DNA of 51,860 bases, taken from the NCBI GenBank assembly GCA_023129235.1, contig JAGMCN010000046.1, positions 1 through 51,860 on the forward strand, given 5' to 3'. The position numbers were made by a program, and so were the translations under genes. Position 1 is the first letter of the stretch; each line of letters begins with the position of its first letter. A model generated the notes under the pieces. That model worked only from the letters and a program-made list of their open reading frames with translations, searched no databases and was not told where the DNA came from. Source of the stretch: a candidate division WOR-3 bacterium. GTDB lineage: Bacteria > Hydrothermota > UBA3073 > JACQXS01. Positions 32,968 to 48,932 of this stretch are shown in pieces.

Positions 32968-33137
32968 AAAATTGGTTTAAGAAATTAAAATTATTCTTCA
33001 CTTGGAAATGTCCATATCGAAAGATTTGCCCCCAATACGATAAAAAAGGAACGTGTAAGGAAGGACCTTGGGTGTATTGTGGAAAATATTGGGAATTAAA
33101 AAAGAAAGAGAATGATAAAAATAGCACTGGTAGGTGA
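32964..33137 (+). CDS. possible small Cys-rich protein (57 aa), not in the track
   Basis: Its ATG overlaps the upstream TGA (ATGA). Translation: MKNWFKKLKLFFTWKCPYRKICPQYDKKGTCKEGPWVYCGKYWELKKKENDKNSTGR, with four Cys. It overlaps the kinase start by 26 nt. Confidence 0.3.
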   Translation: MKNWFKKLKLFFTWKCPYRKICPQYDKKGTCKEGPWVYCGKYWELKKKENDKNSTGR

Positions 33138-34008
33138 TTCCTTTACAGATAAATATATCTTTGGTGAGGTTCATAGATTATCTCCAGAATCTCCAGTACC
33201 ATTATTAGACGTTTCACGTGAAGAAATAAGAGGTGGAGGAGCACTTGACGTTGCTAACTCTCTTCATGGACTTGGAATCAACTTTACTTTATTTACAATC
33301 ACAGAATTATTAGATCAGTCTTATGAAATAGTTTCTCCTAAAAGATCTGTTCCTTTAGTCAAGACTCGTTTTGTAACTGAGAACCATCATCTGCTAAGAG
33401 TTGATTCACCAAATGTTTATCAACAGAAGGATTTAAATAGAATGAGATATCCAAAGAAGGAAGACTGGGATATTATAGTGTTTATTGACTATCTTAAAGG
33501 TATAATTAAAGAAGGAGTAGCAACTCTTGTAGATACAAAAAAGCAAGACCTATCAGTTTTTAAAGGATCAAGATATCTTAAAGTAAATCAAAAGGAATGG
33601 GAGAACGCTTTTAATAAAGATTTTCCAGAGGCTTTTGTTACAAGGGGAAAATATGGAATTGATTATTATTCGAATGGCAAGTTCATGATGAATCTTCGGA
33701 ATACAGCTAAAGAAGTGATTGATGTGACAGGAGCTGGAGATGTAGTAATGGCAACAATAATTTATTGTCTTGCTCATAATATAAATAATCCAGGAGATAT
33801 GATGAGGTTAGCAAACACAGCTGCTGGGATATCTATAAGCAAGTTTGGAACACCCATCGTAACTCTTAAAGAATTAAATGCAGAACTTAAAAAGAGTCAT
33901 CAAAAAGTGGGGAACGGAGATATGGATCTCAAACAACCCAAATCTTCCGTATTGCGGAAAACTCCTGTTGTTGAAGAAAGGCTATCAAAGTTCAGTTCAT
34001 TATCATAA
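33112..34008 (+). CDS. hldA: D-beta-D-heptose 7-phosphate kinase (PfkB family; HldE domain I / HldA type)
   Basis: IALVGDSFTDKYIFGEVHRLSPESPVPLL...GGGALDVANSL and the PfkB signature DVTGAGDVVMATI align with HldE domain I. Homology ends near ...FGTPIVTLKELNAEL (about nt 33890). The last 40 or so codons look non-conserved and overlap the next ORF. Confidence 0.8.
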   Translation: MIKIALVGDSFTDKYIFGEVHRLSPESPVPLLDVSREEIRGGGALDVANSLHGLGINFTLFTITELLDQSYEIVSPKRSVPLVKTRFVTENHHLLRVDSPNVYQQKDLNRMRYPKKEDWDIIVFIDYLKGIIKEGVATLVDTKKQDLSVFKGSRYLKVNQKEWENAFNKDFPEAFVTRGKYGIDYYSNGKFMMNLRNTAKEVIDVTGAGDVVMATIIYCLAHNINNPGDMMRLANTAAGISISKFGTPIVTLKELNAELKKSHQKVGNGDMDLKQPKSSVLRKTPVVEERLSKFSSLS

Positions 34009-34561
34009 AATTAAAACCGAGACTTTCTATATTTATCGGGGGGTAGTTCTAATGCAATTAGGTAGAACTAATTTAAAGATATATAAGCTTCCAAGCGGAG
34101 GATGGATAGAGGATTCCATAGTATTACGTCAAGGAGATTCACAACATATAACTCCCGGAATGGCTCATCGGTTTATAGGCTATACAGATTCGGAAATAAT
34201 TGAATTTTCGACTCACCATCAAGATAGCGATAGTTTTCGAGATCCTAATGACCTATCGGGAAAAGCTTTTATAAAAGAAGGATATGATTGGGATGGGGTA
34301 GCAGATTCAGGGATGGCTCTTCAGGAAGCAGCACCTATAATAACAGGAAGAAGCTTTGAGGAAGCACACAAGATTCTAATTGAGAATCATGTTATCTATT
34401 ATAATCCAGTAACTTATTTTAAAAAGAACGATAGGAATTCAGCTGAGTGGAAAGCCGAAATGATTAAAAGACTTGATATCGAAATCTTTTATGAAGATAA
34501 TTGTGAGCAAGTTAAAATCCTGGAAAAATTATGCCCAAAATGTCTGATCGTAAAAGTATAA
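33878..34561 (+). CDS. cupin-fold sugar isomerase/epimerase-like domain fused to a short HAD-like (DxDGV) phosphatase-like domain
   Basis: Cupin blocks: KKWGTEIWI...GKLLLLKKGYQSSVHYHKIKTETFYI..G........GDSQHITPGMAHRF. The C-terminal part has GYDWDGVADSG (HAD motif I, DxDx[TV]) and FYEDN (motif IV-like). Confidence 0.5.
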   Translation: MQNLKRVIKKWGTEIWISNNPNLPYCGKLLLLKKGYQSSVHYHKIKTETFYIYRGVVLMQLGRTNLKIYKLPSGGWIEDSIVLRQGDSQHITPGMAHRFIGYTDSEIIEFSTHHQDSDSFRDPNDLSGKAFIKEGYDWDGVADSGMALQEAAPIITGRSFEEAHKILIENHVIYYNPVTYFKKNDRNSAEWKAEMIKRLDIEIFYEDNCEQVKILEKLCPKCLIVKV

Positions 34562-35346
34562 GAAAATATATCTTGGTAACTGGAGGAGATGGTTTTATTG
34601 GAACCAATCTTATAAATGAATTAATGAAGGATAAAAATAATTTAGTTATTAATTTCACTGAGGATATTTGTGAAGGAATTAAAATAGATTGTCAGGTAGA
34701 TCTTATTTACCATATGGCGGCTAATACTGATACCACTTTCTCTGACGATGTTGAGATGTATAGAAATAATCTGATAGGATTTTTAAAGGTTTTAGATTTT
34801 GCCATTAAACATAATTGTAGACTTATCTACGCTTCAAGTGGAGCAATTTATGGGAATGTTGGAGAACCATTAAATGTTTATGGTCATTCTAAATTATTAT
34901 GTGATAAAATTGCTGAAAGATTTATTAATCGAATTCCGTTAGTGGGACTTAGGTTCTTTAATGTTTATGGTCCTTATGAACAAAAAAAAGAAAGGATGGC
35001 AAGTATGATTACTCAATGGAGAGAACAAATAGCCAAGGGTAAAAAACCAGGAATTTTTATTGGGGAATTTAAACGAGATTTCGTTTATGTTAAGGATATT
35101 ATACGTGCTTTGCTTCAAGCACAGAATTTAAAAAGCGGATTTTATGATGTTGGAACGGGCAAGGCAATTGATTTCAGAGATGTATTAGATATAGTGATTG
35201 AGGTTTTGGGAGTAAAAGTAGAACCAAAAAAGATTCCAAATCCTTATCTAGGAAAATATCAAACATTTACAAAGGCCGATATTAGCTGGGGTTTTAAACC
35301 CAAGTACCCAATAAGAAAAGGAATCAAAGATTATTTTAAAAATTAA
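34531..35346 (+). CDS. hldD: ADP-L-glycero-D-manno-heptose 6-epimerase-like SDR
   Basis: ILVTGGDGFIGTNL (Rossmann fold), the YGHSK catalytic YxxxK, and FFNVYGPYEQKKERMASMITQ...FKRDFVYVKDI...YDVGTGKAIDF parallel E. coli HldD ([20 protein letters not shown]...FKRDFVYVGDV...NLGTGRAESF). Confidence 0.8.
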   Translation: MPKMSDRKSIRKYILVTGGDGFIGTNLINELMKDKNNLVINFTEDICEGIKIDCQVDLIYHMAANTDTTFSDDVEMYRNNLIGFLKVLDFAIKHNCRLIYASSGAIYGNVGEPLNVYGHSKLLCDKIAERFINRIPLVGLRFFNVYGPYEQKKERMASMITQWREQIAKGKKPGIFIGEFKRDFVYVKDIIRALLQAQNLKSGFYDVGTGKAIDFRDVLDIVIEVLGVKVEPKKIPNPYLGKYQTFTKADISWGFKPKYPIRKGIKDYFKN

Positions 35347-35352
35347 AATAAT

Positions 35353-35640
35353 ATGCCTATTCAAACTAGCGTAGCTTTCTTTTTAATAGTAGCTCATTTC
35401 ATAGGAGACTTTAGTTTTCAGCCTTCTTGGTTATCAGCCGAGAAGAGAAAAGCAAAGCATGTTCTTCTAGGACATTGTATTATCTGTGCAGGTATAGTGG
35501 GAATAGTTTTAATATGGGCAGGTTTATTTGCTCCATGGAAACTATTTGCCTTGACTGGGATCCATTATATAATCGATTGGAAAAAACATAAGATTATAGA
35601 TAAACATGGATATAGTCCCCGGATAGGATTGGGTGATTAA
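35353..35640 (+). CDS. small integral membrane protein (DUF3307-like HxxxDFxxQ motif)
   Basis: Three hydrophobic segments and AHFIGDFSFQPSW. It is the only clearly membrane-embedded product in the island. Confidence 0.4.
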   Translation: MPIQTSVAFFLIVAHFIGDFSFQPSWLSAEKRKAKHVLLGHCIICAGIVGIVLIWAGLFAPWKLFALTGIHYIIDWKKHKIIDKHGYSPRIGLGD

Positions 35641-35683: not shown

Positions 35684-36721
35684 ATGTATCCTATTCATCA
35701 TATCGATTTAAAAACAACGTGGGATCAGTGGGTAAAAGCTCATCCCGAAATAATTCTTAAGAAACGAAAAATTATCTTAAGACAAGGACAATCACCAGGT
35801 GATATTTTAACTTTCACTAGGGTAGTAGGAGATCTTAAAGAAAGCTATCCTAATTATCAAATAGATGTTCGAACTCCATGTGCTGAAATCTGGGAGAACA
35901 ATCCAAGACTTACCCCTTTAAAAGAAGAAGATAAAGAAGTAGAGATTTTTACTATAGGATATGATGAGATTAATCAATCTGGTTGGGAAGGTCTTCATTT
36001 CTCGGATGCTTTTAGACATGATGTAGAAAAAAGATTAGGAATTCCTATTAAGAAAACAGGAATTAGACCAGAACTTTTTATTTCAGAAGAGGAAAGATCC
36101 TGGTGGAATCAGGTTCATTGTGAGTTTAAATGGGATGGTCCATTCTGGATTTTAAATGCAGGAAGAAAACCTGATAATGAACTTAAACAATATCATAGAT
36201 GGCAAGAAGTAGTAGATTTATTCAATGAGCGTTTCCAGAATCGTGTTAAACTCGTTCAGGTGGGTCATAAGGATCATATTCATCCCAAACTTAAGGGTGT
36301 ACTCAACTTAGTAGGAAAAACAGATACTAGACAGTTTATACGTTTAATGTATTGGGCTCATGGTTCTGTTGGTCCTATTTCTTTTCAGATGGTTCTATCG
36401 GCTGCGTTTGAACAGCCATCAGTTTGTATTGCAGGAGGAAAAGAAGGAGTAAGATGGCATGTATATCCTCATATGAGATGGTTAGATACAAATGGATGTA
36501 TTGATTGCTGTAAGTGGGATGGTTGTTGGCTAGGAGGAGAAGGAAAGAAATGTAAACATTTAATAGATAAAGTACCACTCTGTTTTAGATTGATCTCTCC
36601 AGAGCAAATAGTAGATGCTATAGAAATGTATTATAAGGGCGGTGCTCTTAAGATAACTGATACTTCTCAAAAACCAGTTATCCCTGGAAAAGGTGGTTGG
36701 TTTAAGAGAAGATTTAAATAA
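35684..36721 (+). CDS. GT9-family heptosyltransferase-like protein with C-terminal Cys cluster
   Basis: IILRQGQSPGDILTFTRVVGDLKESYPNYQIDV (compare GT9 ilvir.s.lGDvvl..p.l..Lk..yP.a.i). LNLVGKTDTRQFIRLMYWAHGSVGPISFQMVLSAAFEQPSVCIAGG (compare nlaGktsL.el.ali..a.l.vg.DSGp.HlAaA.g.P.v.lfG). Cys cluster CIDCCKWDGCWLGGEGKKCKH lies at about 36490..36555. Confidence 0.6.
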   Translation: MYPIHHIDLKTTWDQWVKAHPEIILKKRKIILRQGQSPGDILTFTRVVGDLKESYPNYQIDVRTPCAEIWENNPRLTPLKEEDKEVEIFTIGYDEINQSGWEGLHFSDAFRHDVEKRLGIPIKKTGIRPELFISEEERSWWNQVHCEFKWDGPFWILNAGRKPDNELKQYHRWQEVVDLFNERFQNRVKLVQVGHKDHIHPKLKGVLNLVGKTDTRQFIRLMYWAHGSVGPISFQMVLSAAFEQPSVCIAGGKEGVRWHVYPHMRWLDTNGCIDCCKWDGCWLGGEGKKCKHLIDKVPLCFRLISPEQIVDAIEMYYKGGALKITDTSQKPVIPGKGGWFKRRFK

Positions 36722-36724
36722 AAT

Positions 36725-37405
36725 ATGAAGTCCTTAATTATAGGAGCTGGGCAGGTTGGCAAAGCTCTATTTTATATTTTGAGAGAATCGCATGAAGTTG
36801 TACTTATGGATCGGAAGTTAACTTCCGAAAAGTTTGAAATTATCCATATTTGTTTTCCCTACTCCAATAAATTTGTATCTGAGGTTAAAAGATATAAAAA
36901 ACATTTTAAACCAAAATATCTGGTTATACATTCAACAGTACCATTAGGAACTTCGAAGAAATGTAACGCTTTCTTTTCACCAGTGAGAGGAATTCATCCA
37001 AGATTGAATGCGAGCTTATTAATTTTTATAAAATATTTAGCTCCTTACAGTGATTTTCTAAAGAAATATTTCGAGAAGACTGGAATGAAAATAGCAGAGT
37101 CAGGGAATCAGGATGATTTGGAAGCTCTAAAATTATGGTCGACCACTCAATATGGCCTTTCTATTGTGGTAGAAAAAGAGATTTATAAATATTGTAAGAA
37201 ACATAGGTTATCTTTTGATCTTGTTTACAAAGATGGGAACAAAACTTATAACAAAGGATATTCAGATTTTAAGATGCCTAACGTACTTCGTCCAATCTTA
37301 GAAGAGATGGAAGGTAAAATAGGTGGCCATTGTGTAATTCCAAATTGTAAACTTTTAGATTCAACGATAGCAAGGCTTATTTCTAGATATAATAAGAAAT
37401 TATGA
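36725..37405 (+). CDS. NAD(P)-binding Rossmann protein, nucleotide-sugar dehydrogenase N-domain-like
   Basis: MKSLIIGAGQVGKAL (GxGxxG) and IHICFPYS...LVIHSTVPLGTSKK resemble the UDP-glucose/GDP-mannose dehydrogenase N-terminal domain (STVPpGT). Confidence 0.45.
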   Translation: MKSLIIGAGQVGKALFYILRESHEVVLMDRKLTSEKFEIIHICFPYSNKFVSEVKRYKKHFKPKYLVIHSTVPLGTSKKCNAFFSPVRGIHPRLNASLLIFIKYLAPYSDFLKKYFEKTGMKIAESGNQDDLEALKLWSTTQYGLSIVVEKEIYKYCKKHRLSFDLVYKDGNKTYNKGYSDFKMPNVLRPILEEMEGKIGGHCVIPNCKLLDSTIARLISRYNKKL

Positions 37406-38193
37406 AGTCTATCTTTCATATTATCCAAACAGGAATAACAGGAAAAGCTGGTGATTTTAAAAGAACTAGATTTGGAAAACCTTGGGTTAAAGAACGAATA
37501 GAGTTATTCAAGAAGTATAATCTTAATAGTCTATTAAATCAGGAGGATCGAAATTTTATTCACTGGATATCTTGGTGTGAAGCAGATCAGGAAAATGAAG
37601 ACGTAATTAAATTAGGTCAACATCTTAAAAAAATAGAATATCCTTATGTGTTCACTTTTAAAAGACTTCCTTATATTGATACTCATGGAAATAATAGAGA
37701 TCTAAAAGAACGAAGGGAGAGAATGTTACCGCTTATTAAGAAATTCTATAAAGATCAGGCTTATGTATATTTTACTGTATTAGATTCAGACGATCTATAT
37801 AGAAAAGATGCTATTAAGATAATTAAACAGACAGACCCGAATGATAAGAAAGCTATGTTTTTCCAGATAGGATATGGTTATAATTTTGATTCTAAAGACC
37901 TTTGTATATGGGTAGCAAAATGGAGCCCACCTTTCTTTACCTTTATTTTTCCTTCAGAAACTTTCTGGGATGTTGATAAACATAGCGAATGGATTAGACA
38001 TTATCATGTACATCATGATGTAGATCGGATTTTTAAAGGAGTAAAATTACCTAGAGACATGTTTATTCAAGGAATTCATGGAGGTAATGCTACGACTCGT
38101 TGGACAAATGCTTACCGACAACGTATTATTATAGATGAAGATCAAAAAGCCGGGATCTTAAAGGATTTCGGAATTCATTATGCCAAAGAATAA
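37402..38193 (+). CDS. GT-A fold glycosyltransferase (GT2 / rhamnosyltransferase-like)
   Basis: DxD motif in FTVLDSDDLYRKDAI. N-terminal RFGKPWVKERIELFKKYNLNSLLNQEDRNFIHWI resembles the R..LF..y.LPSl..Qt...F.w block of the GT2-related family. Confidence 0.5.
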   Translation: MKSIFHIIQTGITGKAGDFKRTRFGKPWVKERIELFKKYNLNSLLNQEDRNFIHWISWCEADQENEDVIKLGQHLKKIEYPYVFTFKRLPYIDTHGNNRDLKERRERMLPLIKKFYKDQAYVYFTVLDSDDLYRKDAIKIIKQTDPNDKKAMFFQIGYGYNFDSKDLCIWVAKWSPPFFTFIFPSETFWDVDKHSEWIRHYHVHHDVDRIFKGVKLPRDMFIQGIHGGNATTRWTNAYRQRIIIDEDQKAGILKDFGIHYAKE

Positions 38194-39100
38194 GTACGCT
38201 ATTATAATGACGTCTACAAGCGGACTCCTTCCAGGAGTCAACGCAGTTTTAAATGGATTAGATTACTATGATAACAAGGGATTTGATTTTTATCTTATAA
38301 ATGATTTTGAAAGAGCTGGGAAAAAAGATTATTTAGAGCAGACGAAATTGTTTAATTTTCCAGTAATAAGTCTTAAGCTTAGTGAGTTTGGACGGAAATT
38401 AACATTTCCGAAAAAGAAAAGAAGTGGTTGGCAAGTAAGATTTTATAGATGGGAATTAGCTAATCAATTAGCTGATTCTTATGATGCCATTTTAGTTATA
38501 GATGCTGATATGGCAGTCACCAATAATATAATGCAATATTTTAAAATTGCAGCTGATACTGGATATATTATAGGAGTAAATAATCCTGTTGGTTATTCCC
38601 TTGAAGGCTTAAAAGAAAAAGGATGTGATGTTTTAAGAGGAGCATCTACTCCTCCTATACATTGCATGCCTTTATTCTTTGATGGCAAAAAATGGAAAAA
38701 GTTATTAGATCTTTGTTGGAAGATAGGAGTAACTGAGGATTGGGGAGACATGTCAAGTCTAGTTAAAGCGATGTGTCAAATGGATATTTTTGATCAAGTT
38801 TATCGTCTTCCTAATTATCTTTGGATCCAGACATGGTTTTACCATGATGGAATAGAAATGAAACAAGCAGGTCCTAAAGAGTATCTCTTGTATGGAAAAG
38901 AGAGAATTAATATGGTGCATGGCAGATGGTGGATCCAGAGTGTTTGTGCAAAATGGGAAGGAATTAAAGAACCAGAACTTGTTAGATTTGGTAAAGGAAA
39001 TACCAGAGCGATTTGGGAAACATTTAAACGTTTAAATACTACTCATAAAATTAAATTAGATTGGGGTCCTTATTCCTGGTATAAGGATGAAAAGAAATGA
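38180..39100 (+). CDS. GT8-like nucleotide-diphospho-sugar transferase (paralog A)
   Basis: YAIIMTSTSGLLPGVNAVLNGL... and DxD in ILVIDADMAVTNN. Paralogous to the 39840 product. Confidence 0.45.
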   Translation: MPKNKYAIIMTSTSGLLPGVNAVLNGLDYYDNKGFDFYLINDFERAGKKDYLEQTKLFNFPVISLKLSEFGRKLTFPKKKRSGWQVRFYRWELANQLADSYDAILVIDADMAVTNNIMQYFKIAADTGYIIGVNNPVGYSLEGLKEKGCDVLRGASTPPIHCMPLFFDGKKWKKLLDLCWKIGVTEDWGDMSSLVKAMCQMDIFDQVYRLPNYLWIQTWFYHDGIEMKQAGPKEYLLYGKERINMVHGRWWIQSVCAKWEGIKEPELVRFGKGNTRAIWETFKRLNTTHKIKLDWGPYSWYKDEKK

Positions 39101-39867
39101 TTCAAGATTTTAAACAAAAGAAGCTAGTTGAATATTTAAAAGATGGCCAAAAGGTTTTAATTAGATTTGGTCATGGACTAGGTGATACAATTCTGTTTAT
39201 GCCTATCTTTGAAAAACTTAAATCATTATATCCAACGGTTCATTTCGATTTATATATTGAATCAGGTCAGGAAGAGATTTGGTCGTCAATTAAAAACAAA
39301 GATGCACCAGGATATGACTTAGTATTTTCACTTAACTTTCCAATGTCAGAAGGTGGAATACATACAAAACCTGAGAAGTGTTGTATAGATGAAATAGGAA
39401 TACAGCCGATAACTGATACAGCAAAATTACCTAAAAAAGATTCTCCTATTGTAGCTGTTCATTTTCAAGGCACAGCTTTACCAGGATCAGTTAGCTGTCC
39501 AGCTTTAATTGCTTATCAAATTTGGGAAGAAATTAAAGATTGCAATAAAATTCCAGTAGAGACTCATTATCAACATGTCTTTCATAATCCAGCCAATAGA
39601 AAATATAGCTTTATAAATGTAACTGCAAGAGATCTTAAGGCTAGTTTATCCAGCTTATTTGGTTTAATCCAGCATTCATGTGCTTTCATAGGGATTGCGT
39701 CAGGGCCTTTTGTAGTAGCACTCGCTTCAATTCCGGATAGGACTTTGTATTTAGAGAAGGCACATAAGCTTAAAACTTATTCTACAAAACAAATAGCGAC
39801 AGTCGATATTAATAATTATCAAAGCGGAGGAGTAAAAAAATGGCTTCAAAGTTTGCCTGGATCATAG
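39097..39867 (+). CDS. second GT9 heptosyltransferase-like protein (short)
   Basis: VLIRFGHGLGDTILFMPIFEKLKSLYPTVHFDLYI and SLFGLIQHSCAFIGIASGPFVVALAS match the GT9 N- and C-terminal signature blocks. Confidence 0.5.
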   Translation: MIQDFKQKKLVEYLKDGQKVLIRFGHGLGDTILFMPIFEKLKSLYPTVHFDLYIESGQEEIWSSIKNKDAPGYDLVFSLNFPMSEGGIHTKPEKCCIDEIGIQPITDTAKLPKKDSPIVAVHFQGTALPGSVSCPALIAYQIWEEIKDCNKIPVETHYQHVFHNPANRKYSFINVTARDLKASLSSLFGLIQHSCAFIGIASGPFVVALASIPDRTLYLEKAHKLKTYSTKQIATVDINNYQSGGVKKWLQSLPGS

Positions 39868-40766
39868 CAGGCTCTTCAAATTATATACCAGGAATAACAG
39901 CGTTTATGAATAGCGCTCGGGCTTTAGGACATAAGGAAGATATTATCTTACTTTCCTTTAGGTTGCCAGATGAGTTTCTTAAAGAAGTTCAAGAAAAGAT
40001 TGGAAATGTAAGGATAGTTAATATTCAGGGAGAAGATCAGGTAAGAGGAACTGCAATTGAAAGGTTTAGAGTAGCAGTAGAAATGGGAAAAGAATATAAA
40101 GCAATTTGTCTTTTAGATGCTGATATGTTTTTAACTGCTAACTGTGATTTATTTTTTAGAATTGCAGAGGCTGGCTTTATAGTCACTGGGTCAAATGGAA
40201 TGATTATTAATTTTAACAAAGCTTATCAGAAACAATATAATTGTTTTCTTGAGAAAGATGAATGGCCTTATCCAAAAGTTCATACATCAGCACCGATCTT
40301 TTTAGGACCTAAACATTTAGATTGGTTTGAACGTTTATATAATAGTAGACGGATTGATAGTTGGGATGACTTTCTCTATTTAAATCTATTAGGAATTAAG
40401 ATGGGTAAGTATAAAGATATGATTGTTTTACCTCCTTATGTCTTTACAGGAATCCATCATTTTGGAGTGAAGCCAGTTACGGGTTGGATGAATAAAAACG
40501 GAATGATTTTATCCCGGACAGAAGAAGTAATTTATATAGCACATGGTAAGTTCTGGGATAAAGGATGGTATACAGGATTAATGGAGCCTATGGAAAGATA
40601 TTATAAGGATGAACAGCTTGGTAAGAGACAGAAGGAAAGAGGATTATACTCAAGAAAAGTAATGATGGACTGTTTCTTAGAATACTTTAATGGTCCTTAT
40701 TTAAAAGGAGATCCAGAGCCTCTAGACTGGTATTTTAAAAAGAATAAAAAAAATGGCAAATCATAG
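39840..40766 (+). CDS. GT8-like nucleotide-diphospho-sugar transferase (paralog B)
   Basis: FAWIIAGSSNYIPGITAFMNSA... and DxD in ICLLDADMFLTAN. Same block order as the 38180 product. Confidence 0.45.
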   Translation: MASKFAWIIAGSSNYIPGITAFMNSARALGHKEDIILLSFRLPDEFLKEVQEKIGNVRIVNIQGEDQVRGTAIERFRVAVEMGKEYKAICLLDADMFLTANCDLFFRIAEAGFIVTGSNGMIINFNKAYQKQYNCFLEKDEWPYPKVHTSAPIFLGPKHLDWFERLYNSRRIDSWDDFLYLNLLGIKMGKYKDMIVLPPYVFTGIHHFGVKPVTGWMNKNGMILSRTEEVIYIAHGKFWDKGWYTGLMEPMERYYKDEQLGKRQKERGLYSRKVMMDCFLEYFNGPYLKGDPEPLDWYFKKNKKNGKS

Positions 40767-41874
40767 AGATCGACCGGTAGGTTATCAATACTTTAAAATT
40801 CTTAAGGATCATCTTGGATCCTTAGATAAAATATTTAATGGAAAGCTAATTTATCCACGGCAGATTGAAATTCATCTACCGGCAGATCATAAGAAATCTT
40901 GTAATTTTAATTGTTATTATTGCCAGGGTAGAATACTCAAACAACCTCTTGTCCCTTGGGAATTAGATGCATTAGATTTGATACGTGAGTTATCAGGAAA
41001 GATTCCGTATTATATCTACGGAGGTGCTTATTCTGAACCAATGCTAAATCCTTACATGATGACTTTCTTACATGTAACGAAACGTTATGGAGCAAATTTT
41101 GGTATCCATACGAATGGCTCATATCTTAAAATTCTAGAAAAAGCACAGGGCTGGATTACAGAACTATGTCGTATAGCTACAGACAAAAGAGATTATCTTT
41201 CAATCAGTTTAGATGCTGGAAATGTAGAAAGCCATAAGAAAACGAAAGGTCTTAGGAAGAATTGGTATGATGAAATTATTCAAGGAATTAGAATGGCTAT
41301 TAAAATTCGAGGGAATAAAGATTATCCTGCTATTCGGGTCTGTTATTTAATGAATGAATTTAATTCTTCTTTAGAGGAGATTAAAAATATTGTTGAATTA
41401 ATGAGAGATATTAAAGTGGATTCCTTAAGATTTTCTATTCCATACGATTTATATGGTAAAGATTTTAAGATAGTTAAACAATATAAAGAAAGAGTAGAAA
41501 TGAAAAGAAAAGATTCCTATCAAGAAAGATTAAAACCCTATCTCTCTTTAGACCTTAAAGAAAAGCCTTATATCTTTTTCATATCCCCGGAATCACAAGA
41601 TGTTGAAAAGATGTGTTTCAAACAATGTATATATAACTATTATCAGATTACGATAGGCGCCGATGGTAATATTTATCGTTGTTCAAGCACTGCTACTCCT
41701 TCTTTCCCAGCAAATTGCTTAGGAAAATTTACTGGGGATGTTGAGGAATTTCAAGAAATGATTCTTAGGAATCATAATAAAGATTGGAAACCAGAAACAT
41801 GTTTTAAAGCTGGGGCAAGATGTAATCGAATGGCTCTGGAAATTAATAAAGAATGGGAAAAAATTAATGAATAA
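40753..41874 (+). CDS. radical SAM enzyme with Cys-rich C-terminal (twitch/SPASM-like) region
   Basis: CxxxCxxC = CNFNCYYC (C50/C54/C57, nt 40900..40923). C-terminal CIYNYYQITIGADGNIYRC fits the Cx9-15Gx4C half-motif of SPASM/twitch domains. Further Cys lie in CLGKF...CFKAGARC. Confidence 0.7.
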   Translation: MANHRDRPVGYQYFKILKDHLGSLDKIFNGKLIYPRQIEIHLPADHKKSCNFNCYYCQGRILKQPLVPWELDALDLIRELSGKIPYYIYGGAYSEPMLNPYMMTFLHVTKRYGANFGIHTNGSYLKILEKAQGWITELCRIATDKRDYLSISLDAGNVESHKKTKGLRKNWYDEIIQGIRMAIKIRGNKDYPAIRVCYLMNEFNSSLEEIKNIVELMRDIKVDSLRFSIPYDLYGKDFKIVKQYKERVEMKRKDSYQERLKPYLSLDLKEKPYIFFISPESQDVEKMCFKQCIYNYYQITIGADGNIYRCSSTATPSFPANCLGKFTGDVEEFQEMILRNHNKDWKPETCFKAGARCNRMALEINKEWEKINE

Positions 41875-42754
41875 AATTACAATAGCTCAAATAGGATGTG
41901 GTTATTGGGGAAAGAGATTACTCCGCTATATTATAGAGAGTGATAAGTTTAATGTTAAATATGTTTGTACTAAAGGAGATGATCTGACTCAAATTTGGAA
42001 TGATAAGGAAGTAAAAGCAGTTGTGATCGCTACTCCAATTAAAACTCATTTTGCTATTGCAAGAAAAGCTATAAGAGCAAATAAAGATATCTTGTGTGAG
42101 AAACCTCTATGTCAACAATTAAACCAAGTTAGATGTCTTCAGCGTCAATTAACTCGTGCAGATAGAAAACTATTAACAGAATGGACATATACTTTTTCAA
42201 AAGGTTTGATAAAAGCTAAAGAAATTATAGATATTGGAAAGATAGGGGGACTTGAATCTATAGAAATGTCCTTGAAATATGCAGGTCGTTTTCTAGATTA
42301 TAATGTATATTGGCTTTTAGGATCACATCTCTTATCTATTCTTGATATGTTTGTTCCAATAGCTAGTTTAGAGTTTCGAAAAATAGATCTTATAAGACAT
42401 GGAAAACGAACAGAGACTGGAATGATTAGATTTTGGAATGAAAAATTAAAAGGGAATATTACAGTCAGTCTTAATTATCCATTAAAGGATATGAGTGTAA
42501 TTTTCTATGGATCAAGAGGAACCCTGGTATTTTCATCAATGAGAGAACCGACGATTCAATATAATTGTTATGTAAAAGACGAAGGAGTTTTAGGAGATCA
42601 ACTTATAACGGAAGAAAAATTCATGTCTTTTGATGAGAAGAATAATTTAAAGCATGCTGTAAATTATTTTTATGATTTTCTACAAGGAAAAGCAGAAGGC
42701 AATCTCGAGAGATCATTTCAAATAACTAAAGTTTTAAGTCAAATACATGAATGA
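41867..42754 (+). CDS. Gfo/Idh/MocA-family NAD(P)-dependent sugar oxidoreductase
   Basis: ITIAQIGCGYWGKR (Rossmann fold) and the family-diagnostic EKPL motif (ILCEKPLC). Confidence 0.65.
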   Translation: MNKITIAQIGCGYWGKRLLRYIIESDKFNVKYVCTKGDDLTQIWNDKEVKAVVIATPIKTHFAIARKAIRANKDILCEKPLCQQLNQVRCLQRQLTRADRKLLTEWTYTFSKGLIKAKEIIDIGKIGGLESIEMSLKYAGRFLDYNVYWLLGSHLLSILDMFVPIASLEFRKIDLIRHGKRTETGMIRFWNEKLKGNITVSLNYPLKDMSVIFYGSRGTLVFSSMREPTIQYNCYVKDEGVLGDQLITEEKFMSFDEKNNLKHAVNYFYDFLQGKAEGNLERSFQITKVLSQIHE

Positions 42755-43343
42755 TAATCATCTTCAAGAGACTATTAGATTAGCAAATGCAGTAGGAGAT
42801 CCTAAACATGCTGTAACTGCTAATGAAGGAATCTTCTTATATAATAGAGCAAAGGAATGTTCAAAAGGAGTTATAGTAGAAATAGGTTCTTGGAAAGGAA
42901 GATCAGCAGTTTGGTTGGGTAGAGGTTCTCAAGCTGGATTTAAAAGAGAAGTTTATGCTGTAGATCCTCACACTGGTTCTCCAGAACATCATAGACTTTA
43001 TGGTAAGATATGGACTCTTCCAGTCTTTCAAAAGAATATTGAAAGAGCTGGGCTTTCAAATATAGTAGTCTCTTTAGTAAAGACTTCTGAAGAAGCTTCT
43101 AAAGATTGGAAAGAACCTATTGAGTTATTATTTATAGACGGCCGTCATGATTATAAATATGTAAAACAAGATTATGATTTGTGGAGTCGATTCTTAATTC
43201 CAGGTGGAATAGTAGTTTTCCATGATTCTATTAGATGGCCAGGTCCTAAATTAGTAGTTGATGAAGTAATATATAAGACTAGAGATTTTATGAAGGTAGG
43301 TATTATTAATTCAATAACCTGGGCTGTGAAAAAAAAGACTTGA
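42747..43343 (+). CDS. class I SAM-dependent methyltransferase (Methyltransf_24 / sugar O-methyltransferase-like)
   Basis: VVEIGSWKGRSAVWLG (motif I), LLFIDGRHDY and VVFHD are typical of the CmcI/TylF-like O-methyltransferase group. Confidence 0.6.
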   Translation: MNDNHLQETIRLANAVGDPKHAVTANEGIFLYNRAKECSKGVIVEIGSWKGRSAVWLGRGSQAGFKREVYAVDPHTGSPEHHRLYGKIWTLPVFQKNIERAGLSNIVVSLVKTSEEASKDWKEPIELLFIDGRHDYKYVKQDYDLWSRFLIPGGIVVFHDSIRWPGPKLVVDEVIYKTRDFMKVGIINSITWAVKKKT

Positions 43344-43377: not shown

Positions 43378-43806
43378 ATGGAATCCAAACCAAACCAAAA
43401 AGAGATTATCTATTTAGCTGGTTTATTAGATGGAGAAGGATGTTTTACAATAGATCGATATAAGAATCCAAAATTACGTTATAATCCTAAAATAGTTCTT
43501 CAATGGACGGAGAACAAGTTATCAGGTCTTCTCAGAGAAAAATTTGGAGGAGACTTACACAAAGTTGCTCCAAGGAAAGATTTTCCCAATAGAAAACCTC
43601 AATATCGCTGGCAGATACAAAATAATACATTACGGCGTCTTCTTCCTTCATTGATTCCATTTTTGAAAGTAAAACATCGTCAGGCAAGAATTTTAGATTC
43701 CTTTTTTAGAGAAAAAAAGAGCGATGGATATGGGAAAGGTCTTCCTCTTAAAGAATTAGATAGAAGAGAGAGACTATATCAGAAAATCAGAACCTTAAAT
43801 TCTTAG
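43378..43806 (+). CDS. free-standing LAGLIDADG homing endonuclease (single-motif type)
   Basis: IIYLAGLLDGEGCFTI is a canonical LAGLIDADG motif. At 142 aa with one motif it fits a homodimeric I-CreI-like architecture. It has its own promoter and terminators. Confidence 0.75.
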   Translation: MESKPNQKEIIYLAGLLDGEGCFTIDRYKNPKLRYNPKIVLQWTENKLSGLLREKFGGDLHKVAPRKDFPNRKPQYRWQIQNNTLRRLLPSLIPFLKVKHRQARILDSFFREKKSDGYGKGLPLKELDRRERLYQKIRTLNS

Positions 43807-44319: not shown

Positions 44320-47300
44320 ATGTTTGAACATATATTAAAAAAATTAGAATCATGGAAGCCAATACATCTGTGTTGGTGGTTTGAGAAACACGGAAAGCCT
44401 ATTCCTAAATATTTTATTGGACAGTCTTCCTCGAGTTCTTCATCTTCTTCTTCTTTTTCAAGCTCCTCTTCCTTTTCAACAGGGGCTTGGCTTGATGGAT
44501 GGAGATATCGAATTAAGATAACTATCCCAGACAACCGAAAAGAAGCAGATTTATCTTATTTTCCAGTAACTATATTTTTAAACGATAATGCTGGAATAAA
44601 CAGTGATGATGTCACCGCTATTTTTGATGAGGTGGGAAGTTCTTCTCAAAAAATTGCTCTTACTAAAGCTGATGGAACAACTCAGCTTTACTGTGAGGTA
44701 GAAAGCTGGAATAGTGGAACTGAAAAAGCTGTAATCCATGTTAGTAAATCAGATTGGAATTTAATTGATAGTTGCGATACGGTTTTTTATTTATATTTTG
44801 ATAATAGACAAGCAGATAATACGACTTATATAGGCGATGATCCAGATGATGCCGCGACTCATGCCGTATGGAATAGTGGTTATAAATTTGTTTCTCACAT
44901 GAAGGATTCTGGATCCTCTGCAATTAAGGATTCTACAGATAATAATAATGATGGGACAAAGAAAGCGGCAAACCAACCTAATCAAGTTGCTGGTAAAATA
45001 GCTAGAGCTCAAGATTTTGATCTTGCGAATGAGGAATATATAGATATGGATTCAACCACCGCACCAATGACAGGATTATTAGTAGAGGGCTGGATAAATC
45101 CTGAGAGTGATGGATCGGCTATGACTATAGCTGCAGATATGTATGATACGGCTGCATGGGCAGATTGTTCCTGGTACGTAATGAGAAATACAGATGATAA
45201 AATTTTTACTATTTCTTATAAAGCTGGTGGAGCCTTATGGAGTCTCGTATCAACTACTGCAATTACGGCTGCAGATGGTTGGAAACATAGTGCTGTAAGA
45301 TGGAATGGAAGTAATGTTTATATTTATTTAAACGGAGTTCAGGATGAAACTGCAGTTGCTTCAGGAGTGATGAGTGCTCATGCTTCAAGAGAATTTACGA
45401 TAGGAAGACAAAAAGATGCTGCTACTTATAAACAATATTATGATGGAATAATAGATGAATTTAGAGTTTCAAATACTGGAAGAAGTGCAGCTTGGGTAAA
45501 AGCTTCTTACTATGAAGGAGCAGATGACTTTGTTTATTTTTCTGCTGCGGAGGGAAATCCTTCATCATCATCATCTTCAAGTTCTTCACAAGAATCTATT
45601 TCTTCTTGCTCATCTTCATTTAGTTCTAGCAGTTCTAGCAGTTCTTCTTCAAGTAAATCTTCTTCTTCATCACTTAGTGCTGTTTGTGGAACTGGACTTT
45701 ATGAAAAACAACAAGATCGAAGTGTTTTACTAGCTAGTCTGTATGGAGTAAATTGGTTATGTCAAACTTTTACTCCTCAAGAAGCTCATTTAATTAAATG
45801 TGTAAGACTTGTTTTTGACAGAGTCGGGGCGGGTGATTTTACGATTACAGCTAGTATTAAAGCAGTAGATGGTAATCATAAACCAACAGGACCAGTTTTA
45901 TGTAGTGGAACGATGAGCACTGATGATATATCTGGAAATGATTGGTATACGATTAATTTAGGAAATGGAACTAATTTATCAGCAGCTACTGAGTATGCAA
46001 TTGAATTTAAATGCCCGGATGCTGATAATGATAATCGCCCAAGAGCATATGGAAGAGATTCTGATGTTTATGCAGGAGGAAAATGTTTTGTATCTCCAGA
46101 TAGCGGAGGAACATGGAATATTCAAACCTGGGATTTTGCCTTTGAGGATTGGGGTCAGGAAACTTCCTCAAGTAGTTCTTCTAGTTGCTCTAGTTCTTTT
46201 AGTTCATCTAGCTCATGTTCTTGTTCTTCATCAGCGAGTTGTGTTCATGATACCCAGCATGATAATTGTGTTTTAGATGACAATGATGTCATATCAATAG
46301 CTGACACTAAATGGTTAGCACAATCGTTTACTCCATCAATTTCCTATCATATTTGTCGCGTAAAAGTTAAACTTGAAAAAAATGGAACACCGCCAACTAC
46401 CACTACTTTTGGCATTCGGAACACAGATGGTAATGGTCATCCAACTGGAGCTGATTTATGTTCAGGGGTCTTAGGACCTGGGCCTGCAGCTGGATGGATA
46501 GAGATTATTTTAGGAGCTGGTTATGATCTTATTCAAGGTACAAAATATGCAGTAGTTGGAAGAGCTCCGTCTGGAGTAGGTGGTGATTGTTGGCGATGGA
46601 GATTTGATAATACAGCCGGAAGTTATACCAGAGGAAATGCACTGGATTCAGATGATTCGGGAGGAACCTGGGGTGACTTAGCTCAGGGTGATGAAGATTG
46701 GATGTTTGATTTATATGGAGATACTGGATCTTCATCTTCATCAAGTTCGAATTCAAGTTGTTCTAGTTCTTTTAGTAGTTCTTCTAGTAATAGTTCATTT
46801 AGTTCTAGTTCATGCTCAAGCAGTTTTTCATCTAGTTCATCTTCTAGTTCATCTTTTAGCAGTAGCTCTTGTTCTTCTAGTTTTTCTTCCTCTAGTTGCT
46901 CGAGCTCATTTAGCAGTAGTAGTTCATGTTCTAGTAGCTTTAGTTTCTCAAGTTGCTCTTCTTCATTTAGTAGTAGCTCTTGTAGTTCATCATTTAGTTC
47001 CAGTAGCAGTTCTTTTAGTTCATCTTCAAGCTGTAGCTCATCCTTTAGTAGCAGCTCATGTTCAAGCAGTTTTTGTTCTTCTAGTAGCTCATTAAGTTTT
47101 TCATCAAGTTGTTCTTGTAGCTCATCTTTTAGCTCTAGCTCTTCCAGCTTTAGCTCTTCTAGTTGCTCAAGCTCTTTCTCTTCTAGCTCCTGTAGCAGTA
47201 GCTTCAGTAGCTCAAGCTCAAGTTTTAGTAGTTCTTCTTCTTCAAGCTTTAGTTCTAGTAGTAGTAGCTTCTCATCTAGTTCAAGTTTCAGTTCTAGCTC

Positions 47301-48930: not shown

Positions 48931-48932
48931 AT

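What the first reader, a model, noticed from the sequence alone, without database searches (positions are those of the whole stretch)
35684..36721. GT9-like transferase with a C-terminal multi-Cys cluster reminiscent of protein-heptosyltransferase metal fingers
Beyond the GT9 signature blocks, this 345-aa protein carries CIDCCKWDGCWLGGEGKKCKH (five Cys within 21 residues) near its C-terminus. As I recall the literature, LPS heptosyltransferases (WaaC, WaaF) lack such a cluster, while the autotransporter heptosyltransferase TibC was reported to have an iron-finger Cys motif. If the two are homologous, this would point to a protein acceptor rather than a lipid A-Kdo acceptor.
Basis: partly seen in the sequence, partly recalled or inferred. 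Interest (0 to 1): 0.6.

Follow-up and report, generated by a model that had tools for sequence, protein, structure and literature searches.

The report
Phage sugar transferase beside polyserine fibres

Summary
The ORF (35684-36721, +, 345 aa) and its Cys cluster are real. Across 62 non-redundant relatives, four Cys are fixed: C275 (60/62) and C281, C290, C300 (62/62). C272 and C276 vary more.

The AlphaFold model (pLDDT 88.5) is a GT-B fold. Its best PDB neighbours are all GT9 enzymes: a Veillonella GT9, TibC, WaaF and WaaC.

The Cys4 site does align with TibC's iron finger. It aligns just as well with a CxxC...C...C motif in 17 of 18 ordinary cellular GT9 enzymes, one of which passes the WaaF equivalog cut-off. 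E. coli WaaC, WaaF and WaaQ happen to lack it. So the motif is ancestral to GT9 and says nothing about the acceptor.

The protein is not a TibC-family member. It has no TIGR04414 hit and no N-terminal barrel, and profile comparison gives 2.8% against BAHTs versus 98.8% against generic GT9.

A protein acceptor is still supported independently. 24 of 57 family clusters have a polyserine ORF within 10 kb, against 1 of 80 random viral loci (p = 4e-10), often directly upstream. Heptose-pathway genes are also enriched.

Best reading: this enzyme glycosylates polySer fibre stalks, probably with ADP-heptose. Direct transfer to Ser is inferred, not shown.

The parts
35684..36721 (+). Divergent GT9-fold glycosyltransferase (P0001, 345 aa), the subject of the finding
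   Evidence: ORF. AF2 model pLDDT 88.5, pTM 0.87. Foldseek top hits are GT9 3tov, TibC, WaaF and WaaC. hhalign gives 98.8% against cellular GT9. The family has 890 clusters at 50% identity with E<=1e-30.
36506..36583 (+). Conserved Cys4 site C275-x5-C281-x8-C290-x9-C300, a predicted structural metal (Zn or Fe) knuckle between the last C-lobe strand and the C-terminal helix
   Evidence: Conservation is 60/62, 62/62, 62/62 and 62/62. The four Cys align to L009 C303/C306/C319/C324 and to TibC C339/C342/C358/C370. The site lies after strand 265-268 and before helices 299-302 and 306-318.
35801..35803 (+). D40 of the invariant P-G-D motif, candidate catalytic base (equivalent to TibC D110 and WaaC D13)
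   Evidence: G39 and D40 are 62/62. The motif sits after strand 1 as in GT9. The role of TibC D110 is taken from PMC4358343.
36185..36187 (+). K168, candidate beta-phosphate-binding lysine (equivalent to TibC K230 and the generic GT9 K-r-W lysine)
   Evidence: K168 is 62/62. It aligns to L009 K190, which aligns to TibC K230. The role of K230 is taken from PMC4358343.
32026..32967 (+). Fusion of a Methyltransf_23 domain with a heptose-1-P adenylyltransferase-like domain (HldE domain II type)
   Evidence: PF13489 at 1.9e-16 and PF01467 at 5.7e-19; phrog_7878 at 2.4e-32. An MT23 gene is adjacent to, or fused with, the GT9-like gene in about 31 related loci.
33112..34008 (+). Heptose-7-phosphate kinase (HldE domain I type)
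   Evidence: TIGR02198 at 1.7e-46.
33878..34561 (+). Cupin-domain protein with an extra C-terminal part; possible isomerase or phosphatase substitute in the heptose pathway
   Evidence: Cupin_2 and Lyx_isomer weak hits. The role is not tested.
34531..35346 (+). ADP-glyceromanno-heptose 6-epimerase (HldD type)
   Evidence: TIGR02197 at 3e-62.
35353..35640 (+). DUF3307 small hydrophobic protein, directly upstream
   Evidence: PF11750 at 5.9e-11.
36725..37405 (+). Unknown protein with an N-terminal Rossmann-type GxGxxG motif
   Evidence: Only weak TrkA N-terminal hits. No relative was found in related loci.
37402..38193 (+). Putative GT-A type transferase (weak Rhamno_transf match)
   Evidence: PF11316 at 3.5e-5.
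38180..39100 (+). GT8-like glycosyltransferase, which co-travels with the family
   Evidence: PF01501 at 3.7e-6. Present in 25-29 related loci.
39097..39867 (+). Second, compact GT9-like protein (256 aa) without the Cys4 motif
   Evidence: hhalign of its 26-member family against cellular GT9 gives 97.1% over the N-lobe, and 56% against A1. Present in 25-26 related loci.
39840..40766 (+). Paralogue of the GT8-like gene
   Evidence: It falls in the same cluster as 38180-39100 in the all-vs-all BLAST.
40753..43343 (+). Radical SAM enzyme, GFO/IDH/MocA oxidoreductase and Methyltransf_24: likely sugar-tailoring genes at the end of the island
   Evidence: PF04055, PF01408 and PF13578.
44320..48930 (+). 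Fibre-like protein (1536 aa) with a Laminin_G_3 domain and four polySer tracts, the largest at residues 797-1423 (nt 46708-48588, 70-82% Ser); the candidate acceptor
48858..51860 (+). Second fibre-like gene (runs off the window) with at least four polySer linkers (50-59% Ser per 100 aa); the second candidate acceptor

Best explanation
P0001 is a phage-encoded, divergent GT9-fold (GT-B) glycosyltransferase with three recognisable features. (1) It has a reduced acceptor-side N-lobe. (2) It keeps the GT9 catalytic Asp (D40) and phosphate-binding Lys (K168). (3) It has a C-terminal Cys4 knuckle (C275, C281, C290, C300) that most likely binds one structural metal ion (Zn or Fe) and braces the loop between the last C-lobe strand and the C-terminal helix. 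This knuckle is the ancestral GT9 motif. It is shared with ordinary LPS-type heptosyltransferases and with TibC, so it is not a mark of protein substrates. The enzyme most likely works in the infected cell's cytoplasm. It would take ADP-heptose, made by the phage's own HldE- and HldD-type genes just upstream, and transfer heptose onto serine hydroxyls of the polyserine stalks of the two fibre proteins encoded just downstream. The neighbouring GT8-like, small GT9-like and tailoring enzymes would then extend and decorate the sugar into a mucin-like coat. What is shown: the ORF, the conservation, the fold, the homology of the Cys4 site to both generic GT9 and TibC, non-membership of the BAHT family, and the statistical linkage to polySer proteins and heptose genes. 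What is inferred: metal binding, ADP-heptose as donor, and direct transfer to Ser.
For: Fold and family: AF2 pLDDT 88.5. The Foldseek top hits are only GT9 enzymes, and TibC gives the best superposition (TM 0.62-0.63, rmsd 4.3-4.8 A). hhalign against cellular GT9 gives 98.8%, E 4.9e-17, over residues 27-315. Distant family members pass PF01075 (27-72 bits).

Active site: G39, D40, K162, K168, R216, E254 and W258 are invariant in 62 sequences. K168 aligns to TibC K230, and D40 lies in the P-G-D motif equivalent to TibC D110.

Cys4: conservation. Exact alignment to the generic GT9 CxxC..C..C motif and to TibC's iron ligands. TibC's four Cys bind Fe and are needed for activity (PMC4358343).

Donor: heptose kinase, adenylyltransferase and epimerase genes sit directly upstream. 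Heptose genes occur in 10-13 of 71 family loci against 1-2 of 80 controls, including next to relatives at 34-38% identity and in Planctomycetota copies.

Acceptor: polySer tracts in the window occur only in the two genes downstream of the island. A polySer ORF lies within 10 kb in 32/71 loci (24/57 clusters at 90% identity) against 1/80 random viral loci, Fisher p = 6e-12 and 3.7e-10. It is often directly upstream of MT23 and the GT9-like gene. The linkage also holds for a Gemmataceae genome copy. The polySer partners carry lectin-like, TIG or Gly-rich surface modules. About 65 residues of the LPS-type N-lobe are absent.
Against: There is no biochemical evidence. P0001 itself has no Pfam or NCBIfam hit above threshold. 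Several GT9 donor-site consensus residues differ: NDSG becomes GP[IL]S and GPT becomes GKEG, so the donor could be another nucleotide sugar. Most family loci (about 58 of 71) show no heptose genes within 10 kb. Other GTs are always nearby: GT8-like and small GT9 in close relatives, GT2- and GT4-like in distant ones, and fusions to further GTs. Any of these could be the Ser-priming enzyme, with P0001 acting on a sugar instead. The co-occurrence test was not corrected for phylogeny, and the control loci are shorter (0.71 Mb against 1.23 Mb in total). I could not read the model coordinates, so the spatial clustering of the four Cys was not measured.
Confidence: 0.5

Rival explanations
1. The pathway is the same but the step differs. 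P0001 belongs to the polySer-fibre glycosylation system but adds heptose (or another sugar) to a sugar already attached by another enzyme. The Ser-priming transferase would be one of the neighbouring GTs: GT8-like, small GT9, or GT2/GT4 in distant relatives.
For: Other GTs always accompany the family, and many members are fused to further GT domains. Classical GT9 enzymes transfer onto sugars (Kdo or heptose). By sequence profile, the phage family is far closer to generic GT9 than to BAHTs.
Against: P0001's family is the only enzyme family detected in all the polySer-linked neighbourhoods, while the partner GTs change between close and distant relatives. That pattern fits the conserved first step on a conserved acceptor chemistry (Ser-OH). 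The N-lobe is reduced relative to sugar-acceptor GT9s, and superposition is best with TibC, the only GT9 known to act on Ser.
Confidence: 0.25
2. Host-envelope modification. P0001 is a phage auxiliary LPS or oligosaccharide-core heptosyltransferase that remodels the host surface, for example to block superinfection, and its proximity to fibre genes is incidental.
For: Profile homology is strongest to LPS-type GT9s (98.8%). Some sources label relatives 'ADP-heptose:LPS heptosyltransferase'. The MAG that holds the contig and its relatives have their own GT9 genes, and thus probably heptose-containing glycans.
Against: About 65 residues of the LPS-type acceptor lobe are missing. The enrichment of polySer ORFs next to the family (p about 4e-10) has no explanation under this model. 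The island sits inside the structural and fibre gene block. The source labels are automatic COG names, not tests.
Confidence: 0.1
3. The strict first-reader reading. P0001 is a TibC/Aah-type autotransporter heptosyltransferase relative whose Cys cluster is a TibC-specific iron finger that mediates dodecamer assembly and substrate gripping.
For: TibC gives the best rigid superposition. C281, C290 and C300 align with TibC's iron ligands, and the flanking motifs (GCW, C-x-R-L-I-[ST]) are similar.
Against: There is no TIGR04414 hit, whereas TibC scores 613 bits. The PF21129 N-terminal barrel, present in all 120 listed BAHTs, is absent here. hhalign against BAHTs gives only 2.8%, for the C-lobe alone. 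The knuckle loops are shorter, and the thumb hairpin region is shortened by a 6-residue gap. The Cys4 motif is generic to GT9. No autotransporter is present in the window.
Confidence: 0.05

Closest known systems
LPS-core heptosyltransferases of CAZy family GT9 (WaaC, WaaF, WaaQ; PF01075; TIGR02193/02195/02201)
   Same: The GT-B fold, the N-terminal G-D catalytic motif, the K-x-W/Y phosphate lysine, and the C-terminal Cys4 motif followed by C-[FLM]-x-x-I (in most non-enterobacterial members) are shared. So is the link to ADP-heptose biosynthesis genes. Profile-profile probability is 98.8%.
   Different: P0001 scores below every curated threshold. About 65 residues of the acceptor-binding N-lobe are missing. 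NDSG is replaced by GP[IL]S and GPT by GKEG. The gene is phage-encoded and linked to polySer proteins rather than to lipid A-Kdo genes.
Bacterial autotransporter heptosyltransferases (BAHT: TibC, Aah; TIGR04414; PDB 4RAP/4RB4; PMC4358343)
   Same: Both are GT9-type catalytic domains with a reduced N-lobe, and TibC is the best structural superposition (TM 0.62, rmsd about 4.4 A). The Cys4 metal site sits at the homologous position. The catalytic Asp and phosphate Lys are conserved. Under the best explanation the acceptor would likewise be Ser in a secreted or surface protein.
   Different: P0001 has no N-terminal beta-barrel (PF21129) and no long thumb hairpin. The knuckle loops are shorter (C-x5-C-x8-C-x9-C against C-x2-C-x15-C-x11-C). 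There is no HMM hit, and hhalign gives 2.8%. The candidate acceptor is a disordered polySer stalk of a phage fibre, not a beta-helical autotransporter passenger.
Serine-rich-repeat adhesin glycosylation in Gram-positive bacteria (GtfA/GtfB with SRRPs such as GspB, Fap1, PsrP) - from established knowledge, not tested here
   Same: A dedicated cytoplasmic GT-B glycosyltransferase is encoded next to a giant Ser-rich surface protein, and additional GTs extend the glycan.
   Different: GtfA is a GT4 enzyme that uses UDP-GlcNAc and has an accessory Sec export system. Here the enzyme is GT9-type, the likely donor is ADP-heptose, and the carrier is a phage.
Mycobacteriophage virion glycosylation (Freeman et al. 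2023, Cell Host Microbe, cited in PMC12582341)
   Same: Phage-encoded glycosyltransferases modify the phage's own virion proteins.
   Different: Those systems use different GT families and modify capsid and tail-tube C-terminal extensions in Actinobacteria phages. No heptose pathway or polySer stalks have been reported for them.

Membership tests
BAHT (TibC/Aah autotransporter O-heptosyltransferases, TIGR04414) | Scores above the curated TIGR04414 cut-off (200 bits) | tested here: not met
   P0001 has no TIGR04414 hit at E<=0.01. TibC scores 613.5 bits.
BAHT (TibC/Aah autotransporter O-heptosyltransferases, TIGR04414) | N-terminal flattened beta-barrel domain (PF21129; TibC residues 1-97) | tested here: not met
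   All 120 listed BAHTs carry PF21129. P0001 has no Pfam hit, and only 27 residues precede strand 1 of the Rossmann lobe.
BAHT (TibC/Aah autotransporter O-heptosyltransferases, TIGR04414) | Cys4 (iron-finger) insertion in the C-lobe before the C-terminal helix | tested here: met
   C281, C290 and C300 align with TibC C342, C358 and C370, and C275 aligns with C339 through the GT9 alignment. The feature is not exclusive to BAHTs, however. The identity of the metal is not testable here.
BAHT (TibC/Aah autotransporter O-heptosyltransferases, TIGR04414) | Beta-hairpin thumb and ring dodecamer assembly | tested here: inconclusive
   The hhalign alignment shows a 6-residue deletion at the thumb region, and the model has only one- or two-residue strands there. 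The oligomeric state cannot be tested with these tools.
BAHT (TibC/Aah autotransporter O-heptosyltransferases, TIGR04414) | Profile-level sequence homology over the whole catalytic domain | tested here: not met
   hhalign of A1 against the BAHT alignment gives probability 2.8%, E 0.016, for the C-lobe only.
GT9 (PF01075, ADP-heptose-dependent GT-B transferases) | Pfam PF01075 hit above the gathering score | tested here: not met
   P0001 has no hit, and the genome scan of G000 did not detect the window. Relatives do pass, however: P0090 and P0111 and distant fusion proteins at 27-72 bits.
GT9 (PF01075, ADP-heptose-dependent GT-B transferases) | Profile-profile homology and GT-B fold with GT9 enzymes as nearest structures | tested here: met
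   hhalign gives 98.8%, E 4.9e-17, over residues 27-315. Foldseek ranks 1-30 are all GT9 entries: 3tov, TibC, WaaF and WaaC.
GT9 (PF01075, ADP-heptose-dependent GT-B transferases) | Catalytic Asp after strand 1 and phosphate-binding Lys at the start of the C-lobe | tested here: met
   D40 and K168 are invariant in 62 sequences. K168 aligns to L009 K190 and TibC K230.
GT9 (PF01075, ADP-heptose-dependent GT-B transferases) | Uses ADP-heptose as donor | not testable with these tools
   Only context bears on this. HldE- and HldD-type genes are adjacent and enriched across the family. Some donor-site consensus residues differ.
LPS-core heptosyltransferase (WaaC/WaaF/WaaQ equivalogs) | Equivalog-level score (TIGR02193/02195/02201) and a full-size N-lobe for a lipid A-Kdo/heptose acceptor | tested here: not met
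   The best hits are RfaQ at 22 bits against a cut-off of 467, and TIGR02201 at 15.5 bits against 170. About 65 N-lobe residues are absent, and the N-lobe has only three strands.
Dedicated glycosylation system of a Ser-rich surface protein (SRRP-like logic) | Glycosyltransferase gene genetically linked to a giant Ser-rich protein gene | tested here: met
   24/57 family clusters against 1/80 control loci, p = 3.7e-10. Direct adjacency is seen in L041, L044-L051, L079 and L227. In the window the fibre genes lie downstream.
Dedicated glycosylation system of a Ser-rich surface protein (SRRP-like logic) | Ser residues of the tract actually carry the sugar | not testable with these tools
   This needs mass spectrometry of virions or of co-expressed proteins.

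The most novel reading that the evidence does not exclude
A widespread, so far undescribed protein O-heptosylation system. It has 890 or more 50%-identity clusters in uncultivated phages, with relatives in Planctomycetota chromosomes and in long multi-GT fusion proteins. A stripped-down GT9 enzyme would prime serine hydroxyls of giant polyserine stalks on virion fibres, and variable partner transferases would build a mucin-like sugar brush on them. The ancestral GT9 Cys4 metal knuckle would serve, as in TibC, as part of the protein-substrate grip.
Probability: 0.35. Interest if true: 0.75.

Novelty: new variant of a known kind. Interest (0 to 1): 0.55.

Why it matters
There are two points.

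First, a correction of general use. The 'unique iron finger' of TibC is the retained form of a Cys4 motif that most GT9 enzymes outside the Enterobacteriaceae carry. It looks unique only because every other solved GT9 structure (E. coli WaaC and WaaF, Veillonella 3tov) has lost it. It should not be used to predict protein acceptors, and many LPS heptosyltransferases are probably metalloproteins.

Second, a large unannotated phage protein family now has a testable function. It has no match among 50,697 deposited phage genomes but at least 890 clusters in metagenomes. The proposal is glycosylation of polyserine fibre stalks, probably with heptose. If confirmed, this would be the second known class of protein O-heptosyltransferase. 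It would also be a new kind of virion glycosylation, with consequences for how these phages stick to hosts or surfaces and resist proteases.

Tried and rejected
- Sequence and profile searches of P0001 and of alignment A1 against PDB sequences found nothing useful.
- PHROGs had no family for P0001.
- tblastn against 50,697 deposited phage genomes gave no match, so no cultured phage carries the gene.
I replaced this with profile-profile residue mapping.
- A control set anchored on the major capsid protein returned only one locus. I replaced it with 80 loci drawn by an arbitrary 15-mer.
- Single-linkage clustering of neighbourhood ORFs first merged all GT families into one component and had to be tightened.
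- Literature searches for phage polyserine or heptose glycosylation found nothing relevant.
- Strict TibC-family membership was rejected (see the membership tests).
- A disulfide or redox role for the Cys cluster was rejected as unlikely for a cytoplasmic enzyme, given the TibC Fe-Cys4 precedent.
- DNA glycosylation was considered because of the methyltransferases and radical SAM enzyme in the island. It was not pursued: nothing links the family to DNA-modification genes, and the polySer linkage is strong.
Full report
**Observation.** The string CIDCCKWDGCWLGGEGKKCKH is residues 272-292 and holds five Cys. A sixth Cys, C300, follows. The window is a phage contig. It has a major head protein (phrog_9953) at 6784-7800, tail-fibre-like genes, all long ORFs on one strand, and strong GC skew. 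The contig is binned into a 1.7-Mb, 62%-complete MAG.

**Is the Cys cluster more than chance?** Yes. A word-indexed search found at least 355 homologues at 60-77% identity, almost all unannotated. A full HMM search of 1.84 billion representatives found 890 clusters at E<=1e-30 and 2205 at E<=1e-3. In 35 close homologues and in 62 non-redundant members spanning 30-100% identity, C281, C290 and C300 are invariant. C275 is present in 60/62 and C276 in 56/62, while C272 is variable. The conserved unit is C275-x5-C281-x8-C290-x9-C300. G39, D40, K162, K168, R216, E254 and W258 are also invariant.

**Fold and family.** P0001 has no Pfam, PHROG or PDB-sequence hit, and only a 22-bit N-terminal match to RfaQ. 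An AlphaFold2 model built from the alignment is confident (pLDDT 88.5, pTM 0.87) and is a GT-B fold. The Foldseek PDB hits at ranks 1-30 are all GT9 enzymes:
- Veillonella GT9 3tov: E 5e-12.
- TibC 4rb4/4rap: E 3e-11, with the best superposition (TM 0.62-0.63, rmsd 4.3-4.8 A).
- WaaF 1psw: E 1e-10.
- WaaC: E about 1e-7.

The best viral matches are uncharacterised GT9-like proteins of about 300 aa from uncultured phages. The N-lobe of the model has only three strands (29-33, 59-63, 86-90). The Cys region lies between the last C-lobe strand (265-268) and the C-terminal helices (299-302, 306-318).

**Is the Cys cluster TibC's iron finger?** TibC's ferric ion is held by C339, C342, C358 and C370, in an insertion in the C-lobe. 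All four Cys are needed for colour, dodecamer integrity and activity (PMC4358343). I took TibC from the ETEC H10407 chromosome and built a BAHT alignment. hhalign pairs P0001 C281, C290 and C300 with TibC C342, C358 and C370, and the flanking motifs are alike (GCW; C-x-R-L-I-[ST]). The overall probability is only 2.8-7%, however, and only the C-lobe aligns.

The decisive control was ordinary GT9 enzymes. Of 18 PF01075 proteins (80-137 bits) from 20 relatives of the MAG, including the MAG's own, 17 carry C-S-P-C-x8-14-C-x4-C-[LM]-x-x-I-[ST]-V-[DE]-[DE]-V at the same place. One (L010) passes the curated WaaF equivalog cut-off (TIGR02195, 150.9 against 134.6 bits, matched end to end). The others score best to the LPS heptosyltransferase II and III models.

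hhalign of the phage family against these cellular GT9s gives 98.8%, E 4.9e-17, over residues 27-315. P0001 C275, C281, C290 and C300 fall exactly on L009 C303, C306, C319 and C324. BAHTs align to the same cellular set at 97%, with TibC C339, C342 and C370 on C303, C306 and C324, and C358 three columns off in a gapped loop. The three Cys4 sites are therefore one homologous, ancestral GT9 feature.

E. coli WaaF, WaaC and WaaQ have 0-1 Cys in their last 90 residues. The solved LPS-type structures (3tov, 1psw, 2gt1/2h1f/6dfe) lack the motif in the aligned stretch. That is why TibC's finger looked unique. The Cys cluster consequently carries no information about the acceptor.

**Not a BAHT.** P0001 has no TIGR04414 hit, whereas TibC scores 613 bits. 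It lacks the PF21129 barrel that all 120 listed BAHTs carry. Its thumb region is shortened and its knuckle loops are shorter. By sequence it is a peripheral GT9: distant family members pass PF01075 at 27-72 bits. The acceptor lobe is cut down, with about 65 residues missing relative to LPS-type GT9s.

**Active site and donor.** D40 (in the P-G-D motif) corresponds to the catalytic base (TibC D110). K168 aligns with TibC K230 and the generic GT9 K-r-W lysine, which binds the beta-phosphate. S233 aligns with TibC S301. I232 occupies the position of TibC P300, Aah S294 and the generic Asp of NDSG.

Directly upstream lie four heptose-related genes: an MT23/heptose-1-P adenylyltransferase fusion, a heptose-7-P kinase, a cupin protein, and an ADP-heptose 6-epimerase. 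Heptose-pathway genes occur in 10-13 of 71 related viral loci, against 1-2 of 80 control loci. They also occur next to homologues at 34-38% identity and next to Planctomycetota copies. ADP-heptose is therefore the likely donor, but this is inferred. Several GT9 donor-site consensus residues differ, and most loci would have to rely on host ADP-heptose.

**Acceptor: an independent line of evidence.** Earlier notes of this scan, treated as leads only, pointed to a polyserine tract downstream. I verified it. ORF 44320-48930 (1536 aa, with a Laminin_G_3 domain) has a tract of about 627 residues at 70-82% Ser (residues 797-1423) plus three shorter tracts. The next fibre gene has four Ser-rich linkers. 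No other ORF of the window has any.

I then fetched 71 IMG/VR loci encoding family members at 30-73% identity and, as a control, 80 viral loci drawn with an arbitrary 15-mer. I counted loci with an ORF of at least 150 aa holding a 60-residue window of at least 60% Ser:
- Family loci: 32/71, or 24/57 after clustering the enzyme at 90% identity.
- Control loci: 1/80, and that one is a giant-virus bin.
- Fisher's exact test: p = 6e-12 and 3.7e-10 respectively.

In many loci a giant same-strand polySer ORF (700-3083 aa, 80-90% Ser windows) ends just upstream of the MT23 and GT9-like gene pair. In the small phage contig L041 the order is polySer fibre, then MT23, then the GT9-like gene, then an MT/GT8 fusion.

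The link holds in both the close (at least 52% identity) and distant (30-46%) halves of the family. It also holds for a Gemmataceae genome copy, where a 581-aa, 68%-Ser, TIG-domain protein lies directly upstream. The window's closest relatives are undercounted, because their fibre genes lie more than 10 kb from the enzyme, as in the window itself.

Partner enzymes vary. Close relatives have two GT8-like paralogues, a small GT9-like protein and MT23. Distant relatives have GT2-like and GT4-like enzymes. Long fusion proteins carry Mannosyl_trans3, GT2, GT34, PLOD-GT, GT4 and methyltransferase domains. The GT9-like enzyme is the only enzyme family detected in every neighbourhood; this is partly by construction, since the loci were chosen for carrying it.

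**Best explanation (confidence about 0.5).** P0001 is a phage GT9-fold transferase with an ancestral structural Cys4 metal knuckle. It glycosylates the polySer stalks of the phage's own fibre proteins, probably with ADP-heptose made by the adjacent genes, and probably as the priming step on Ser. Other island enzymes then extend and tailor the glycan.

**Rivals.**
- It acts on a sugar rather than on Ser within the same pathway (0.25).
- It modifies host LPS (0.1).
- It is a true TibC-type enzyme (0.05).

None of the transfer chemistry has been shown. The co-occurrence statistic is not corrected for phylogeny, and the Cys geometry in the model could not be measured.

**Novelty and verdict.** The conclusion it pointed to, a protein Ser-tract acceptor, is supported by different and stronger evidence. 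No cultured phage carries the gene, and I found no paper describing such a system. The nearest precedents are BAHTs (PMC4358343), Gram-positive SRRP/GtfAB systems (from established knowledge) and mycobacteriophage virion glycosylation (cited in PMC12582341). I rate it a new variant of a known kind, of moderate to good interest, and directly testable by co-expression in laboratory E. coli and mass spectrometry.

Noticed in passing
window 39097-39867 (+): A second, compact GT9-like protein (256 aa) with the G-D motif but no Cys4 knuckle. Its N-lobe matches cellular GT9 at 97% by hhalign, and it co-occurs with P0001 relatives in about 26 loci. The island therefore has two candidate heptosyltransferases.
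   Followed up: partly
window 32026-32967 (+): Methyltransf_23 is fused here to the heptose-1-P adenylyltransferase domain. In other phages the MT23 is a separate gene immediately upstream of the GT9-like gene, or is fused to it (P0091, P0119). Its substrate, whether sugar O-methylation or something else, is unknown.
   Followed up: partly
window 33878-34561 (+): A cupin-domain protein overlaps the kinase gene by 131 nt. No SIS-type GmhA or HAD-type GmhB was recognised in the window, so the isomerase and phosphatase steps of the heptose pathway are unaccounted for, or are supplied by the host or by this ORF.
   Followed up: no
window 43378-43806 (+): A LAGLIDADG homing-endonuclease-like ORF sits between the sugar island and the first fibre gene.
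   Followed up: no
window 46708-48588 (within ORF 44320-48930): The polySer tract has a periodic S4-C-S3-F pattern in its first half and S-x-S-E/Q/I-S patterns in its second half. The regular Cys and Phe are unexplained.
   Followed up: no
L033:6572-7072 and 8 similar loci: A small protein of about 167 aa from the virion-gene region of related phages ends in a polySer tail (…SWSSSSSSFSSSSFSSSSESA). PolySer tags may therefore mark several virion proteins for glycosylation, not only fibres.
   Followed up: no
L223, L227, L228 (Planctomycetota genome contigs of 0.4-6.9 Mb); L221 (Anoxychlamydiales-labelled bin): Distant family members (35-42% identity) lie on large Planctomycetota contigs, one next to a TIG-domain polySer protein. 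The closest relatives sit on small phage-like contigs binned into PVC or 'Deltaproteobacteria' MAGs. This hints at PVC-group hosts or at a cellular origin of the system.
   Followed up: partly
P0339, P0363 (1053 and 1142 aa), P0269, P0305: Some family members are N-terminal domains of proteins over 1000 aa, fused to Erv1/Alr sulfhydryl oxidase or to chains of eukaryote- or giant-virus-like GT domains (Mannosyl_trans3, GT34, PLOD-GT). Foldseek also hit giant-virus proteins (Bodo saltans virus, Klosneuvirus).
   Followed up: no
P0088, P0099; P0077, P0110, P0120: A few relatives carry a C-terminal PF20274 domain, or an N-terminal extension of 60-100 residues with a shared motif (…G[LM]KF.DGH.H.H…) of unknown role.
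   Followed up: no
G000 contig C23:13762-14496 (L020) and relatives L009-L028: The MAG's own GT9 genes and those of its relatives nearly all have the CSPC…C-x4-C motif. No solved LPS-type GT9 structure contains it, so a metal site in LPS heptosyltransferases appears to be unstudied.
   Followed up: partly
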